A stretch of DNA of 63,322 nucleotides, the filler included, from Squatina squatina (taxonomy: Eukaryota), in the NCBI GenBank assembly GCA_031763465.1. It is 3 parts of 2 records of this genome, joined end to end, with 100 filler letters (N's around TTAATTAATTAA, not from the genome) between each part and the next. Parts side by side here need not be neighbours in the genome. Positions count along the whole stretch, not along the records: positions 25,681 to 39,042 come from JARFOE010000057.1; 2 more parts are not named here. The stretch is one strand, 5' to 3'. This document shows positions 12,605 through 52,381 of this stretch, in pieces. The translations under genes and the position numbers were made by a program. Position 1 is the stretch's first letter, and every line of letters begins with the position of its first letter. The notes below the pieces were generated by a model. The model saw nothing but the letters and a program-made list of their open reading frames with translations. It was not told the origin of the DNA and searched no databases.

Positions 12605-14798
12605 NNNNNNNNNNNNNNNNNNNNNNNNNNNNNNNNNNNNNNNNNNNNNNNNNNNNNNNNNNNNNNNNNNNNNNNNNNNNNNNNNNNNNNNNNNNNNNNN
12701 NNNNGTTCAACTATGTAAATAACTTAAATCCCTCACAATGTGCAGTGGTATATGATGAAAAAACAACTTAACCAAATAGAGACATGGCAAGTACACTCGT
12801 TAGTGAATTTACAATACTAATAGAGAACAGAAAATACCACAAAGTTGTGATTTTTTTATTGCTACACATTTCACTGAAAGTGTGGCCATTATACAAATAC
12901 TTGGGTGACTCTTCAGGAAGGCCTGCAGGATTATACTATATAAATTTATTGGAAATAATCGGGTAGGGGAAGGTAGAAAAAAAAAGGGCTACGATAGATT
13001 ATTCCCTTCAGCAAAACCTTATAGGTCCCCAGATTTTCTCTTTTAAAATGTAGTAAATCTTGCCATAAGATCTGATTACAGTCATAAAAATGATTTAGTT
13101 TACACAATAAAGCACAGTGAAGGATCCAGGTAATGGGAGAGGATGTAATAAAGATGAGTGAGTACAGCAGGTAGTGGCAGCTGTCCTCCAAGAGTGCCTG
13201 TGTGACATAGGCTCTGCTGAACTGGAATCTGGGCAGCCTCTGATGGAGCCTGCAAGCACTGGTCAGGGCATTAGCCAGTAATGCTCTCTGATAGAAATGT
13301 CCACCTTCAGCAACTCTATGGACAAGAAACACAAGACACAAAATATTCAGCTTCTTTACATTCATCAACAACCGATAAAGATGTGACAGTGAACTGTGGT
13401 ACTATGCAGGGGGCGTGCAAGGTGGGAAGAAATTAATGTTTATGGTTTTTACTGTTATTGTACATTATTCATTTTGTACAACTTACATTTTCCTTTCTAT
13501 TTTAATAGTCAACTGGGGGTCTAACATGTAGAAACTGGTCACTGTGTTTAAGAATTTGCAATTAAAGCTACTAAGAAGTCAATTTCCTTTTTGCCCCAAA
13601 ATGTAGAAAGACATTCCACTAATCCAACTCCAAAGATCTCAAGTGCAGGTTAACAGAGCCAAGGCACCCCAAGTCTGTGCAAGGGTGTTGCTGTGGTTTA
13701 ACCAGCAAAAACTGTGCAACTCACTAGAGCAGATCACTGATAAGCTTCCCACTCACTTGTCCAGATAGGAGCACAGCAACATTAGGGGTTCGGCCTACAG
13801 AATTATCTGCAGCAAAGTGAAAACAGTACCTGCCCTCAGTGACAAGTCTATATCTTCAGGTTCCACTCGTGAGCTAGGCTAGTTACTCAATTACCAACGG
13901 TGCCCTGGAGAACTGTGAAGTTGCCTGGCTCAATTATCATATTTCCAATTCTGNNNNNNNNNNAGGAATGTCCTCTTGCACCCAATCCTGCCCTCCCCCC
14001 AAGACAGTCACCACTTGGTTGTTAGATCACTGGTAAACTCCCAAGTTTGAGCCTGCGCTGGGCATACAGCAAGAACTAGGAGCTCCCCACAAGCAGCATG
14101 GTGAGCAATGCAAGTTGCCACAGAACAGTTGGATGCATTGTCACCATCCTCCTGACCATAGCATGGTAGGCGCCAAGCATTGTGATATATGAGCACACGT
14201 ACCTGTATCTGGCCTCCAGCTAAGTCCTTCCAGCAGCTGTCTTCCTAAGTATTATAGTTTCCTCATCAGATATATAATGGACATCACTAAGGTTATAGTC
14301 CAATACGGTGCACCAGGTTTACTTGTCACCACCTGCTTAGTCCAGATCCTCTTGTAAAGGGCTTTGGAAAAGGAGAATGCCTGCTGTGAGGCTGAATTCT
14401 CCTCCAAAGTTTTCAGTGACAATTTTGGTGTAGCCTGGAACTCATTCTTCTTGCACCAGCTTCCATTTTTTGTCACAAATCAAAGTAACAGCTTAGTCTG
14501 GGGAAGGGGGAGAAAGGGGCAGCAGCTAGGGTTGGGGTGGCGGTATTCAAAAAGAGGGCCAAAATCCTGCAGACCTTTAAGTGCTGCTTTGCTAAGCTGT
14601 TGACTCCCATCTGAAATCGCAAGACAGAGTCAAGTATATCTTCAAGGGAGCAAAAGGGCAGACTCTCAAAACAACAGGCAGAACCTACTGAGCTGAAAAG
14701 GAGCTCAGGTAGTCAGTTTTCCTTGGACATTCCCAGTGAGATACTTGGATCTATAGATACGGCTGTGTGAATAAGGGCAGGTGTCCGCAGTCAGCCTC

Positions 14799-35247: not shown

Positions 35248-36571
35248 CCAGACTCAATTAATTCAATCAGTATAACTTATCTTTGCCTAGTACAAAATAA
35301 TGAGCCAAGACCATGCTTGGCGTAAACAAAACCACTCCTGCATCTCCTCAACCTGACAAAAACTTGCCCGTGCAGTTTTTGTTTGAAGACCTGATTGGCT
35401 GAGTGTCTCTTTTTTTATATATTCCTTTGTTCACAACCAGGAACCTCCCAACACAACAATCAATTATCACGACAGGCTAACAAATTGCTTATTGTTTGCA
35501 ATCTTAGCATTTTAATCTCATTCTTGTCTCTGTATGTTTTATTTTAAACCTGTGTGAATGCACTTTGCTTTAAGATACATCCTTTAAATATAACTTTACT
35601 TCCCCAAAATCTTTTCAGTGGAAAAGTTAGCAAAAAAACACAAAAGGTGACCATGGCTTTAACATCATAAAAGGTTCCAGAGCACTTTATGGAGGTAAAA
35701 TCATGTACCAAGCAGAAATGGGACGTGACCAAAGACATAATCGAAAAGAAAGCTTTTGAGGAGCAAAATCAAGGGGAAGGGCTTTCCAGAGTTTGGTATC
35801 AAGATTGGAGATAGAGCAGAAAGAGGATGGATGCAAAGGAGGACAGAATCAGAAGAGTGTTCTCTGGTACATTGGGCTGGATGAAAGTGCAGAAGTAGGA
35901 AAGGACGGGAATTGGTTTGTAGATGAATGCAAGGATTTTGAATTCAATATATAAGTGTTAATGAAAGTCTAGCAAGACTTAAAAGGTTCTTTTGACCGAG
36001 CAAAGTGTAAGTGGTTAAGAGGATTTATCAAACCTTCTCATTTTTGTATCTCTCTTTCCAGAGTTTGACCGCACCTTTAGTATGTTGACTGGAATTGCAC
36101 CTATTAACCCAATGATGCCTGGATTGGGCATCATCCCTCAAGACATGCCTGTAGTCAAGGAAATCATCCATTGTAAAAGCTGTACACTTTTTCCTCCAAA
36201 TCCAAGTAAGTGTGTGAGTTGCAAGAGAATAACTAATTGTTGATGGAAATTTATCGATATTTTTCATGATTTATTTATATCTTGCTTCTGATGGCTTTTT
36301 GTGAACAGNNNNNNNNNNNNNNNNNNNNNNNNNNNNNNNNNNNNNNNNNNNNNNNNNNNNNNNNNNNNNNNNNNNNNNNNNNNNNNNNNNNNNNNNNNNN
36401 NNNNNNNNTCCCAAAGAACTTCACAGCCAAGGAATTATCTTTGAAGTGCAATCACTGTTGTAGTGTAGGAAATCCAGTGGTAGGGATTGTACTGCTGCAC
36501 TCTGCCCTTAAACCCTAACATCTAACACCACTGATTTTGTTTAGTTTCTAAGGATTTCTGTTCACATTCAG

Positions 36572-36805
36572 GCTATCGCATGAGGCTGGGATCGAGCACA
36601 GACAAGAAGGACACAGGCCGCCTGCATGTTGACTTTGCTCAAGCTAGGGATGACGTTTATGAATGGGAGTGTAAACAGCGTATGATGGCAAGAGAGGAGC
36701 GCCATCGACGAAGAGTGGAAGAAGATAGATTTCGACTACCTTCACCTCCACCAATAGTGCATTATTCAGAACATGAAAGTGCTGCACTGTCCGAAAAACT
36801 TCGAG
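36572..36805 (+). CDS. ENOX2: ENOX-family (ecto-NOX disulfide-thiol exchanger) internal exon (234 nt), (G)YRMRLGSSTDKKDTGRLHVDFAQARDDVYEWECKQRMMAREERHRRRVEEDRFRLPSPPPIVHYSEHESAALSEKLR
   Basis: Lies within ORF 36580..36918. Acceptor cattcag, donor gtaatt, phase 1-1. Covers the end of the RRM plus coiled coil of ENOX1/2. KKDTGR favours ENOX2 over ENOX1 (KKDSGR); the paralogue call is less certain than the family call. Confidence 0.9.
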
Positions 36806-37692
36806 GTAATTTAAAAGTTCTGCACCATAAGTCTTTTGTTCTTAGTTTCAACCTTTTGTGGGCAACATTTTATTTCTGCTTCCAAAATAGGGTCATTTTC
36901 ACATCCACCTCTTTGTAAAAGTTTTGCACCTAACAAATGCATGCCGTACTTTTGTTTTTCACACATGCGAGCCAACCGTAATAAATTAAAACAGAACAAT
37001 GTTAAAAGGAAAGTGTTAGAATGAGAGATATAATCAGTCATTTTCTGCTTTGACATTAGAATCTTTAGTTGCCTGGTGATTGAACATCTACTCTGGTTAA
37101 TAATTAATTACCTAAAAATCGAATTCTCAACACAATTTACAATCCTAACTGAAAAATTTTGGTCAATGTGAAATGTTTCTGCAGGCAAACACTGAATTGC
37201 TCCGAGATATTTGTGCATCGCCTCAAAATGCCAGTCAAAGACCTGATGTAGAAAATGTGCCTAACATAATGCAGCCTCATTTGTTTGAAATCATTGGAAT
37301 ACTGTGATTCGTTTGCACAATGTATTTCAGCCGTATTGAAAATATTTCACTTGCTTGCTGCCATGGCAGGTAATTCCAAAATTTGTCAAGCTAGTAGCTA
37401 TTTGTTGCTATTAGTTTCAAGATCAGTACAAAGCAGCATTGCACCAGGAGCCAAATCAATATTTAAATGGATGCCTAATACCAGTGCCAGACAATAGAAT
37501 TAAACTTGACATTTTAGAAACCACTACAACAGAAAATGAGTTTTAATGCTATTCCATTCCTTTTTTTTGTGAGCACATACGCGGTTGTAAATAGTACATG
37601 TTGTGACCGTGAAGTTAATATACAAAAAAGTATAAGTGTACACTTGATTTCAGGATATAGGATTTATTTATTTTGTATGTGCTTATCCACAG

Positions 37693-37762
37693 GAATGTCC
37701 CAGTGGGATAGTCAATGAAGAGACATTCAAAGAGATTTATGCACAGTTCTTTCCCCAAGGAG
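37693..37762 (+). CDS. KCNIP4: Isolated KCNIP/KChIP (neuronal calcium sensor) exon, 70 nt, [23 protein letters not shown](D), EF-hand 1 region
   Basis: Acceptor ttatccacag, donor gtgagt, phase 0-1. The peptide is closest to recalled human KCNIP4 [23 protein letters not shown]. The family is well supported but the paralogue is tentative. No other KCNIP exon was seen in the window. Confidence 0.85.
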
Positions 37763-37798
37763 GTGAGTATTTATACTGACAACACCAATAGTCATATG

Positions 37799-37875
37799 AA
37801 AGAAAGAACTTGCATCTTTCATGACCCCAAGATGTCCCAAAGTGCTGTACAGCCAATTAAGTACTTTTTGAAGTG
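37799..37875 (-). mobile_element. Deu-domain SINE 3' part
   Basis: AAAGAAAGAACTTGCAT...GTCCCAAAGTGCTGTACAGCCAAT, the reverse complement of the SINE tail. Confidence 0.75.
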
Positions 37876-38436
37876 NNNNNNNNNNNNNNNNNNNNNNNNN
37901 NNNNNNNNNNNNNNNNNNNNNNNNNNNNNNNNNNNNNNNNNNNNNNNNNNNNNNNNNNNNNNNNNNNNNNNNNNNTCTGACCGTGGCAAGTTGTGACATT
38001 GAACTTAATAAATCTAGTTATTTCAAGGCTGACAGCAGAACAATGTATTACCATGAAAACAACAGATTACTTACAAATCTAACTAATATCGTTCAAGGAG
38101 GTTACTTGCCAACCCTACTCTGCCTGGCCTACACATGACTCCAATTCCACACAACATGATTGACTGTGGCATATCAAGCTATTCAGTTATAACAATATCT
38201 ACTACGAAGCAAAAAGGTAGCCCATCAACACCTTCTCAGAGCAACTAAGGATGCAGCCTTGCCAGTGTCATCCACATCTTGAGAACAAATGTTTTAAAAT
38301 ATTCCAACACCAAGTCATTTTCAGGACAGAGAGCAATTGACATGCAAGTATTCTGGTTAGATTGCTTTTGAACAGTTAAATCTGTTTCTTCCTTTTCTTT
38401 GGCTTACATTTGAATATATCAATCTCTTTCTTGCAG

Positions 38437-38649
38437 ATGATACAAAATTCTCTCAAGCTGTTCAGATCCTTTATACCTGGCTGGAACGAGGTGAAGTGAA
38501 CCGTCGATCAGCAAACATCTTCTACTCCATGATCCAGTCAGCTAACAGCCATATTCGAAGGCTGATGAATGAAAAAGTTCTGCATGAAAAAGAGATGGAG
38601 GAAGCCAAAGAGAAGTTTAAGAATGCTCTTTCAGGGATTCTGGTTCAAC
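38437..38649 (+). CDS. ENOX2: ENOX-family next internal exon (213 nt), (D)DTKFSQAVQILYTWLERGEVNRRSANIFYSMIQSANSHIRRLMNEKVLHEKEMEEAKEKFKNALSGILVQ
   Basis: Translated by hand. Acceptor tttcttgcag, donor gtgagt, phase 1-1, splicing in frame to 36572-36805. AVQ, YSMIQ, EKFK and LSGIL are ENOX2-like. Confidence 0.9.
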
Positions 38650-49605: not shown

Positions 49606-52381
49606 AAATTCGCCCGTTTCTGACTGTAAGGGGCGTACATTTGACTCCACTAATCCTTCTATCTTCACATATCTATAAAAGTTTTTACAGACAGTTTTTA
49701 TGCTTCCTGCCAGCTGAGTCGCATACTCTTTTTTCCAAATCTTAATTAAACCCTTTGTCCTCCTCGGCTGAACTCTAAATTTCTCCCAGTCCTCAGGTTT
49801 GGTGCTTTTTCAGGCCAATTTGTATGCCTCTTCCTTGGATTTGATACTGTCGCTAATGTCCCTTGTTAGCCACGTTTGAGCCACGTTTTCTGCTTTATTT
49901 TTACGCCAGACCGGGATGAACAATTGTTGTAGTACATCCATGTGATCTTTAAATTTTTGCCATTGCATGTCCATGGTCTACTCTTTAAGTATCATTCGCC
50001 AGTATTGCCGAGAAAATTCACGTCTCATACAATCAAAGTTAGCTTTCTTTACGTTCAGAACCATTGTCTCTGAATTACCTATGTGACTCGACATCCAAAT
50101 GAAGTATTCTACCATATTATGGTCACTCTTGCCCAAGGGGCCTCACACAATAAGATTGCGAACTAATCCTTCCTCGTTACGCAATGCCCAGTCTAGGAAG
50201 GCATGCTCCCTCGTTGGTTCCTCGACATATTGGTTTGGAAAACAATCCTGTATGCACTCCAGAATATCCTCATCCACAGTGCCGTTACCAATTTGGTTAG
50301 TCCAATCTATATGTAGATTAAAGTCAGCCATGATAACTGTTGTACCTTTATTGCACACCTCCCTAATTTCCTGGTTGATTCCATCCCCAAACTCACTACT
50401 ACTGTTTCGTGGCCTGCACACAACTCCCATTGGCGTTTTCTGCCGATTAGTGTTTCTCAGCTCTACCCATAAAGATTCCACCTCATCCAAGCTTCGTACT
50501 ATTGAGTGAATGTCCTCTCTAACCAGCAACATTACCCCACCTCATTTAGCGTACAGTCTATCCTTCCGGAATATTGAATACTCCTGGATGTTGAGCTCAC
50601 AGCCTTGGTCACCCTGGAGCCATGTCTCCGTGGTCCCAACAATTTCCCATCCGATAACAAATTTCTGCCCAGTTAATTCGGCTATCTTATTTTCAATTAA
50701 GACACAAAGTCTTCAGGCTGGTTTTTATAATATTCTTAGCAGTTATAGAATCATGTTGTAAATGGCCCTTTTAGATTTTTGCCCTTGATTTTCCTGCCTT
50801 CCACTTTTACTTTTCTCCTGACTAGCTTTTGCTTATTCCCACATTTTAGCTCCCTGTGTCTCCCTGCACTTGTTCCCATACCCCTGCCATATTAGTTTAA
50901 ACTCTCCCCAAAAGCACTAGCAAACACTCCACCCTAGACATTGTTTCCAGTCCTGCCCAGGGGCAGACCGTCCGGTTTGTACTGCTCCCACATCCCAAAG
51001 AAACGGTTCCAGTGTCCCAGGAATTTGAATGCCTCCTGCTTGCACCATTTCTCAAGCCACATATTCCTCTGAATAATCCTCCTATTTCTCCTCTGACTTG
51101 CATGTGGCACTGGTAGTAATCCAGTGATTATTACCTTTTGTGGTCCTACTTTTTAATGTATCTCCTAACTCCCGAAATTCATCTTGTTGGACCCCATCCC
51201 GCTTTTTCTCAATATTGTTGGTACCTATGTGTACCAGGACAACTGGATGTTCACCCGACCCCTCCAGAATTCCCTGCAGTCGCTCCGAGACATCCTTGAC
51301 CCTTGCAGCAGGAAGCAACATACCATCCTGGAGCGTCGTTTGTGGCCACAGAAAGGCCCAGCTATTCCCCTTACAATTAAATCCCCTACCACTACAGCTC
51401 TCCCAGTCTATTGTCTACCCCACCCCCACCCCCGCCACCCTGTGCAGCAGGGCCACCCATGGGGCGGTGAGCTTGGCTTCTCCTACATTTCTCAGATGAG
51501 CCATCTCCCCAACAGTATGCAAAGCGGTATATCTGTTTTAGAGGGCGATGAACGCAGGGGACTCCTGCACTACCTGCATTCCCCTGTGCTGCCCAGACGT
51601 CACCCATTGCCCTTCTGCCTGTGTAAACTTTATCTGTGGTGTGACCAACTCACTAAACGTGCTATCAGCGACGTCCTCAGCATTCCGGATGGTCCAGAGT
51701 GAATGCCACCGCAACTCCAGCCTCTCAATATGGTCTGTCATGAGCTGCAGCTGGATACATTTCCTGCACAGAGAATGCTCAGGGACACTGGAAGTCTCCC
51801 TGACTTCCCACATAGTGCAGCAAGTGCATAACACCAGGCCGATCTGTGCTTCTTCTGACTTACCCATAAATTAAATCAAATCCAATCCTAACATAAAAAA
51901 AAAATCTTAATCTTTTAAACTGAACCCTTAGCTTAAAGTACTAACACAAATAAACATCTGGGCTAACTCACCAATCAGTTGTGTCACTTTTTGCAATGTG
52001 CCATTGCTCTGGAACGCTGCCCTCTCTCTATGAAATGGGCTCGCCTCTGAAAACAAAAGACCAACCTTTTAAACGCACTTATCGGCAGCCTCTGTCTCCA
52101 CTCCGCTCCCTCCTCTCAGTGGGCCTCTGAAAACAAAAGACCGCCCTTTTAAACACACTTATCGGCAGTTTCTGTCTCCGCTCCGGTCCAGTCTCTCAGT
52201 GGGCCTTTTGAAAACAAAAGACCGCCCTTTTTAATGCAGTTATCGGCAGCCTCTGTCTCCGCTCCGCTCCCCCCTCACAGTGGGCCTCTGAAAACAAAAT
52301 CCCGCGCTTTTTAAAACTCTTACCGGCAGCCTCTGTCTCCGCTCTGCTCCCGCCTCTCAGTTGGCCTCTGAAAACAAAAGA
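49606..52381 (-). mobile_element. CR1 LINE 5' half: 5'UTR, ORF1 (zinc finger/coiled coil plus SGNH esterase, ~51867-50892, frameshifted) and ORF2 APE endonuclease; 3'-truncated
   Basis: ORF 51538..51867 has CxxCxMWE...CRKCxQL. ORF 51082..51321 has esterase-like ARVKDVSERL...VLVHIGTNN. ORF 50143..50532 has endonuclease-like ESLWVEL...GVVCRP...MADFN...QYVEEPTREHAFLD. Confidence 0.93.
52043..52381 (-). repeat. ~80-bp tandem monomer array (4+ copies) at the 5' end of a CR1 LINE
   Basis: GCCTCTGAAAACAAAAGA-like starts at 52043, 52123, 52203, 52284 and 52363, with TTATCGGCAGCCTCTGTCTCCGCTCCGCTCCC-like text in each full unit. Confidence 0.93.

What the first reader, a model, noticed from the sequence alone, without database searches (positions are those of the whole stretch)
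36572..38649. Intact KCNIP exon inside an ENOX intron, same strand
Seen: two ENOX exons that splice together in frame (phase 1-1) bracket a 70-nt exon at 37693-37762. It has canonical AG/GTGAGT sites and encodes a well-conserved KChIP EF-hand-1 peptide. There is no N gap between the first ENOX exon and the KCNIP exon; the only gap (37876-37975) comes after it. If the exon were spliced into ENOX mRNA it would read [12 protein letters not shown], acting as a poison exon. Known: human ENOX and KCNIP genes lie on different chromosomes, and same-strand interleaving of coding exons is rare. Inference: a chimeric contig or mis-scaffold is the simplest explanation. A real intron-containing duplicated fragment or an interleaved gene would be a novel arrangement.
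Basis: partly seen in the sequence, partly recalled or inferred. Interest (0 to 1): 0.7.

Follow-up and report, generated by a model that had tools for sequence, protein, structure and literature searches.

The report
False join of three shark genes
The potassium-channel-partner exon found inside an unrelated shark gene is real sequence, but DNA from related species splits into separate pieces at this spot, so it is most likely an assembly error that stitched parts of three genes into one short contig, not a new gene arrangement.

Summary
The exons are as described. The 70-nt exon is identical to shark and ray KCNIP4 (23/23 residues). The 1,467-nt gap-free piece holding it is most likely an assembly chimera.

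In contigs of four related species, no listed piece joins the two halves. The ENOX2 side ends at 37021-37049 and runs on with other DNA, up to 4,588 nt. The KCNIP side starts at 37042-37044 in 3 of 4 runs, behind up to 1,297 nt of other DNA. A second join lies inside the ENOX exon: in 4 of 4 runs its upstream and downstream introns belong to different contigs, probably ENOX1 and ENOX2.

The rest of KCNIP4 lies on another scaffold, with a 100-N gap where this exon belongs. The two genes are recorded on different chromosomes in four cartilaginous fishes.

Reads of the source animal were not available, so a recent real insertion is not excluded (about 9%). The scan noted similar stray exons and a paralogue mosaic elsewhere in this genome.

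The parts
36062..36205 (+). Upstream ENOX2-type exon on the previous contig piece; lacks 4 residues (12 nt) against 10 of 10 shark, ray and chimaera ENOX2 proteins shown
36409..36497 (.). High-copy repeat at the 5' end of the gap-free piece
   Evidence: (hits to query positions 1-69), table 2
36498..36571 (+). Intron end and acceptor from ENOX paralogue A (likely ENOX1); aligns to contig set A in 4 of 4 runs and not to set B
   Evidence: table 8
36572..36805 (+). ENOX exon, likely a mosaic: 5' part from paralogue A (YRMRLG), 3' part from ENOX2; the switch lies between 36569 and 36777, probably 36600-36700
36806..37049 (+). Start of the ENOX2 intron; relatives' ENOX2 contigs match up to 37021-37049 and then run on with other DNA
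   Evidence: tables 5 and 8
37042..37049 (+). Join between ENOX2 intron and KCNIP4 intron; about 8 nt (TTTCTGCT) fit both sides; no N
   Evidence: table 8; sequence
37042..37692 (+). KCNIP4 intron upstream of the exon; matches the KCNIP-side contig in 3 of 4 runs
   Evidence: table 8
37693..37762 (+). Intact KCNIP4 exon (residues 91-113 of P0052, first EF-hand region), phase 0 to 1
37763..37875 (+). KCNIP4 downstream intron running into a high-copy repeat at the end of the piece; relatives' KCNIP contigs end in the same repeat (37815); no return to ENOX2 sequence is seen
37876..37975 (.). 100-N scaffold gap of unknown true size
38437..38649 (+). Next ENOX2 exon on a separate contig piece

Best explanation
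The gap-free piece 36409-37875 is most likely an assembly chimera of three loci: likely ENOX1 (upstream intron and 5' part of the exon), ENOX2 (3' part of the exon and 244 nt of intron) and KCNIP4 (651 nt of intron, the exon, and its downstream repeat). Inferred mechanism, in three steps. (1) In a fragmented short-read assembly the two ENOX paralogues were crossed over where their exons are nearly alike. (2) The ENOX2 intron was joined to a KCNIP4 piece at about 8 nt of overlap, by a chimeric library molecule or a short-overlap merge. (3) The scaffolder then placed the piece in the ENOX2 locus by its ENOX exon. In the animal the exon would sit in KCNIP4 and never be spliced into ENOX2 mRNA. 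Shown: the breakpoints in relatives, the identity of the exon, and the gap in KCNIP4. Inferred: that the joins are technical, which technical route made them, and that paralogue A is ENOX1.
For: (4 of 20 holder runs laid; 4 species, 4 studies; 80% likeness). (a) No listed contig spans the join. (b) ENOX2-side contigs stop matching at 37049 (X1, X13) or 37021 (X4, X9); they run on for 4,588 (X1), 33 (X4) and 276 (X9) other letters. (c) KCNIP-side contigs start at 37042, 37044 and 37042 (X1, X4, X9), preceded by 246, 1,297 and 43 other letters. (d) In 4 of 4 runs one contig carries the upstream intron plus the 5' exon (36498/36524 to 36684-36777), and another carries the exon plus the downstream intron (from 36569/36599), with 80-1,267 unmatched letters upstream. 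Protein level: the 5' end YRMRLG fits 6 of 6 ENOX1-type proteins (YRMR[LI]G) and none of 12 elasmobranch ENOX2 (all IRIG); the 3' end is ENOX2-type; five other KCNIP4 exons plus an alternative first exon lie on G000:C1, with only a 100-N gap between the exons for residues 22-47 (P0051) and 138-173 (P0052), where this exon belongs. Only one copy of the exon and its intron was found. The next KCNIP4 exon sits on an unplaced contig without an in-phase acceptor; it is 1 of 26 KCNIP/ENOX exons inspected. ENOX2 and KCNIP4 are on records of different length in Carcharodon (173.5 vs 274.1 Mb), Chiloscyllium (81.3 vs 156.6), Amblyraja (62.9 vs 193.2) and Mobula (148.7 vs 232.5). Gap-free pieces in the window have a median length of 1,412 nt.
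Against: No run of the source species was found (best share 0.13), so no read across either join was examined. Relatives show only that the arrangement is not ancestral; a young, lineage-specific rearrangement would look the same at the 37042 join. Table 8 is cut, and a filter leaves records out. X13 lists no KCNIP-side orthologous contig. The native continuations of both broken introns were not found in G000. About half of the fetched flanks read N (89 of 200 kb readable on C57, 74 of 150 kb on C1), so single-copy status is weak evidence. YRMRLG also occurs in 8 salmonid ENOX2-type proteins, and no shark ENOX1 protein was in hand. About 8 nt of overlap is too short for a plain k-mer misjoin and also fits end-joining repair. 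25 of 26 inspected exons have normal splice sites or are cut by a gap or contig end, so false joins are not everywhere.
Confidence: 0.88

Rival explanations
1. Real, recent copy-paste or cut-paste of a KCNIP4 genomic segment into an ENOX2 intron by double-strand-break repair (class 2 templated insertion). The captured exon would be skipped, or would act as a poison exon (premature stop after 8 codons).
For: About 8 nt of overlap at the join fits the microhomology described for class 2 insertions (PMC5110952, passages). A copy under 2% diverged would keep all 23 residues and both splice sites with probability 0.3 or more. The scan noted two other foreign exons in introns in this genome (AI notes, not checked by me).
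Against: It does not explain the second join 450 nt away inside the ENOX exon, in register between old paralogues. Only one join is seen: the KCNIP4 part runs to the end of the piece. The segment is at least 834 nt; experimental insertions were 73-414 bp. No donor copy was found, and KCNIP4 on C1 lacks this exon. A copy 5% diverged would stay intact with probability 0.046.
Confidence: 0.09
2. A real KCNIP gene nested or interleaved with ENOX2 on the same strand in sharks, for example an extra paralogue.
For: The exon is intact with canonical sites. Shark KCNIP1-3 proteins were not in hand, so the paralogue assignment rests on identity with KCNIP4.
Against: tblastn finds only this exon in the 89 kb readable of 200 kb around it. 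Relatives' contigs separate the two introns. The two genes are on different chromosome records in four species. The other KCNIP4 exons are on C1.
Confidence: 0.02
3. A real inter-chromosomal rearrangement in this individual or species that fuses ENOX1, ENOX2 and KCNIP4 and breaks all three genes.
For: The next KCNIP4 exon also lacks its acceptor, and one ENOX2-type exon carries an in-frame stop, so gene damage in this lineage is conceivable.
Against: It needs two breakpoints within 450 nt, one by recombination between ancient paralogues. The other KCNIP4 and ENOX exons found have open frames and normal splice sites.
Confidence: 0.01

Closest known systems
Chimeric contigs and paralogue cross-overs in fragmented short-read assemblies (general knowledge; PMC7757076 seen as a search listing only)
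   Same: Short gap-free piece with repeats at both ends; joins at a shared paralogous exon and at a short overlap; the donor gene has a gap at the matching place.
   Different: The route (chimeric library molecule, shared k-mer or short-overlap merge) is not identified, and reads of the source animal were not seen.
Class 2 templated sequence insertions (PMC5110952; passages read)
   Same: Distant genomic DNA at a join with a few bases of overlap; no poly(A) tract at the one join seen.
   Different: Only one join is visible; the segment is at least 834 nt; the donor copy was not found; a second, in-exon paralogue join lies beside it.
Host/nested gene pairs (PMC11694760, PMC5174743; search listing and start of abstract only)
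   Same: Coding sequence of one gene inside an intron of another.
   Different: Here it is one internal exon, not a whole gene, and the rest of the gene is on another scaffold.
KChIP4 / KCNIP4 (PDB 3dd4; shark and ray proteins P0026, P0038, P0048, P0051, P0052, P0054, P0056, P0077, P0082)
   Same: 23/23 identity to 9 of 9 named chondrichthyan proteins; 21/23 to 3dd4.
   Different: Nothing in the exon itself; only its place in the assembly. Some mollusc KChIPs have the same peptide, so it is not unique to KCNIP4.

Membership tests
KCNIP4 exon | Peptide identical to chondrichthyan KCNIP4, phase 0 to 1, canonical splice sites | tested here: met
KCNIP4 exon | Closer to KCNIP4 than to shark KCNIP1-3 | tested here: inconclusive
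   Differs from the KCNIP1- and KCNIP2-labelled bony-vertebrate proteins; no shark KCNIP1-3 sequence was in hand (P0077 is labelled KCNIP1 but matches the KCNIP4 proteins)
KCNIP4 exon | Missing from the colinear place in the KCNIP4 locus | tested here: met
   Only a 100-N gap lies between the flanking exons on C1
Assembly chimera | Piece splits into blocks that lie on different contigs in related genomes, each running on with other DNA | tested here: met
   37042-37049 join in 3 of 4 runs on both sides (4 of 4 on the ENOX side); in-exon join in 4 of 4
Assembly chimera | No, or a single, source read or pair across the join | not testable with these tools
   No run of the source species was listed
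Assembly chimera | Native continuations present elsewhere in the same assembly | tested here: inconclusive
   Not found; the assembly is incomplete and about half of the fetched flanks read N
Class 2 templated insertion | Two joins, recipient sequence on both sides | tested here: inconclusive
   One join seen; the other side ends in a repeat and an N gap
Class 2 templated insertion | Donor sequence still present at its origin | tested here: not met
   One copy only and a gap in KCNIP4; weak, because the assembly is incomplete
Class 2 templated insertion | End-joining marks (microhomology), no poly(A) tract | tested here: met
   About 8 nt fit both sides; no poly(A) at that join; not specific
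Nested or interleaved gene | Further exons of the nested gene within or beside the host | tested here: not met
   None in 89 kb readable of 200 kb; other exons on C1
Nested or interleaved gene | Arrangement shared with relatives | tested here: not met
Poison exon | Inclusion makes an early stop | tested here: met
   In-silico splice
Poison exon | Inclusion seen in RNA | not tested
   No RNA was examined

The most novel reading that the evidence does not exclude
This shark lineage really captures intron-containing pieces of distant genes into introns at an unusual rate. Here a recent KCNIP4 segment sits in ENOX2 with a ready-made poison exon, and the other stray exons noted in this genome would be further cases of the same repair-driven exon capture.
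Probability: 0.09. Interest if true: 0.5.

Novelty: not a real feature. Interest (0 to 1): 0.07.

Why it matters
As an artefact it has no biological weight. It does carry a practical warning: in this assembly a stretch without N is not proof of contiguity, and even a clean open exon can be a blend of two paralogues. Other 'captured exon' notes on this genome should get the same test with relatives' contigs. If it were real, it would be a very young exon capture in a slowly evolving vertebrate genome, with a testable effect on ENOX2 mRNA.

Tried and rejected
Mis-scaffolding alone: rejected, because the join lies inside a gap-free piece. Chance peptide match: rejected. Processed (retro) copy: rejected, because both introns flank the exon and match relatives.

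Search for second copies in G000: only the window copy with 36480-37060, 36990-37795 and the 23-residue peptide (its three other hits are 52-61% alike). The whole piece gave only repeat hits, 40 of 2,231 candidates scored. The ENOX1 version of the exon was not found with ENOX2 or ENOX1 queries.

PACRG-family search for KCNIP4 synteny was uninformative: the hits are on C115 and unplaced contigs. Pfam scan of 130 window frames: none hit in the finding's region above cut-off. No RNA holder listed. X13 has parts without cover in the KCNIP intron; this was not used as evidence. The loose-end letters at the two joins and shark ENOX1 sequences were not obtained, so paralogue A is not named with certainty.

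Literature: 'KCNIP4' + 'ENOX2' gave 1 unrelated paper; 'KCNIP4' + 'shark' gave 7 unrelated papers; listings only. No supplements were read; none is expected to bear on the claims.

Full report
Observation. Its peptide matches KChIP4 at E = 1.4e-10. It is identical to 9 of 9 named shark and ray proteins; eight are labelled KCNIP4 or KCNIP4-like, and the ninth is labelled KCNIP1 but has the same sequence. Spliced into ENOX it would stop after eight codons. The stretch 36409-37875 has no N and lies at G000:C57:5073131-5074597. The assembly has 1.15 million contigs, and gap-free pieces in the window have a median length of 1,412 nt.

Where the rest of KCNIP4 is. A KCNIP4 query finds its other exons on scaffold C1 at 11.94-12.03 Mb. 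Between the exon for residues 22-47 (P0051) and the exon for residues 138-173 (P0052) there is only a 100-N gap, and the three exons that belong there are absent. One of them is the window's exon. The next is on unplaced contig C630474, where it has no in-phase acceptor. It is the only one of 26 KCNIP and ENOX exons inspected that lacks a splice site in mid-contig. No other KCNIP exon lies in the 89 kb readable of the 200 kb around the window's exon. In four cartilaginous fishes ENOX2 and KCNIP4 are on records of different length (173.5 vs 274.1, 81.3 vs 156.6, 62.9 vs 193.2, 148.7 vs 232.5 Mb). For clusters with several members that figure could come from another species' record.

The test with relatives. 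No run of the source species was listed; 20 runs hold 6-13% of the words. I laid contigs of 4 of them, from four species and four studies, at 80% likeness. No listed piece spans the stretch. Contigs matching the ENOX2 intron stop at 37049 (X1; X13 by its joint row) or 37021 (X4, X9). By the record coordinates, X1's contig goes on for 4,588 letters that match nothing here, X9's for 276 and X4's for 33. Contigs matching the KCNIP intron and exon begin at 37042 (X1, X9) or 37044 (X4), behind 246, 43 and 1,297 unmatched letters; X13 lists none. The join is therefore at 37042-37049, with about 8 nt fitting both sides. The KCNIP contigs of relatives end in the same repeat as the window piece (37815), so the piece never returns to ENOX2. 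The table is cut and filtered, so this shows breaks with run-on sequence, not proof of absence.

A second join. In 4 of 4 runs two contigs cover the first ENOX exon. Set A matches the upstream intron and the 5' exon (36498 or 36524 to 36684-36777) and then diverges for 406-498 letters. Set B matches the exon from 36569 or 36598-36599 and the downstream intron, with 80-1,267 unmatched letters upstream. So the window joins the upstream intron of one paralogue to the downstream intron of another. The protein agrees: YRMRLG at the start fits 6 of 6 ENOX1-type proteins (YRMR[LI]G) and none of 12 elasmobranch ENOX2 proteins, while the 3' half is ENOX2-type. The motif is not diagnostic on its own, since 8 salmonid ENOX2-type proteins share it, and no shark ENOX1 was in hand. 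That A is ENOX1 is an inference from where its match fades. G000 shows only one copy of this exon.

Mechanism. Two joins 450 nt apart in one 1.5-kb piece, one of them in register between old paralogues, are most simply technical. I infer a cross-over between ENOX paralogues at shared exon sequence, a join to the KCNIP4 piece at a short overlap, and placement in the ENOX2 locus by the scaffolder. That chimeric library molecules and short-overlap merges make joins without N is recalled knowledge, not tested here. The breakpoints, the exon identity and the gap in KCNIP4 are shown; the technical origin is inferred. Confidence 0.88.

Rivals. A recent real insertion (class 2 templated insertion, PMC5110952, passages read; the lead came from earlier notes) fits the microhomology and is not excluded by the intact exon if under about 2% diverged. 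It leaves the in-exon join, the missing second join and the missing donor copy unexplained (0.09). The missing donor is weak evidence, because about half of the fetched flanks read N and many exons are absent from the searches. A nested or interleaved gene fails both tests (0.02). A real three-gene rearrangement is very unlikely (0.01).

Context. Earlier notes on this genome describe an MMAA exon in MKRN2, a PSMD14 fragment in TMEM131, a stray exon in the MHC region and a TLR8 paralogue mosaic. These are unchecked AI notes. The recurrence fits either systematic false joins or frequent real capture, and I did not test them. Searches for KCNIP4 with ENOX2 and KCNIP4 with shark showed nothing relevant in the listings.

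Verdict. Real exons, false neighbourhood: not a real feature, interest 0.07.

Noticed in passing
L044 (G000:C630474), reverse strand about 570-645: The KCNIP4 exon that follows the window's exon has its donor but no in-phase acceptor. It is preceded by about 130 nt of unique DNA and a common repeat. Possibly another false join.
   Followed up: partly
L069 (G000:C406382), reverse strand 1-110: ENOX2-type exon with an in-frame TGA near the contig start; sequencing error or broken copy.
   Followed up: no
window 36062-36205: ENOX2-type exon lacks 4 residues found in the shark, ray and chimaera proteins shown; sturgeon and paddlefish proteins have a similar shortening. The RRM exon that should follow is not placed here; only an ENOX1-type copy was found, on C59095.
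   Followed up: partly
window 12949-13401 (-): TMEM33/Pom33 exon in another stretch of the pack (Pfam PF03661, E = 2.9e-25).
   Followed up: no
window 50146-50541 (-): Weak endonuclease-reverse transcriptase match (PF14529, below cut-off), probably a decayed LINE.
   Followed up: no
window 36950-37045: Extra contigs of relatives align just before the join (raised depth in X1, X9, X13), suggesting a short low-copy repeat next to the breakpoint (table 2).
   Followed up: no
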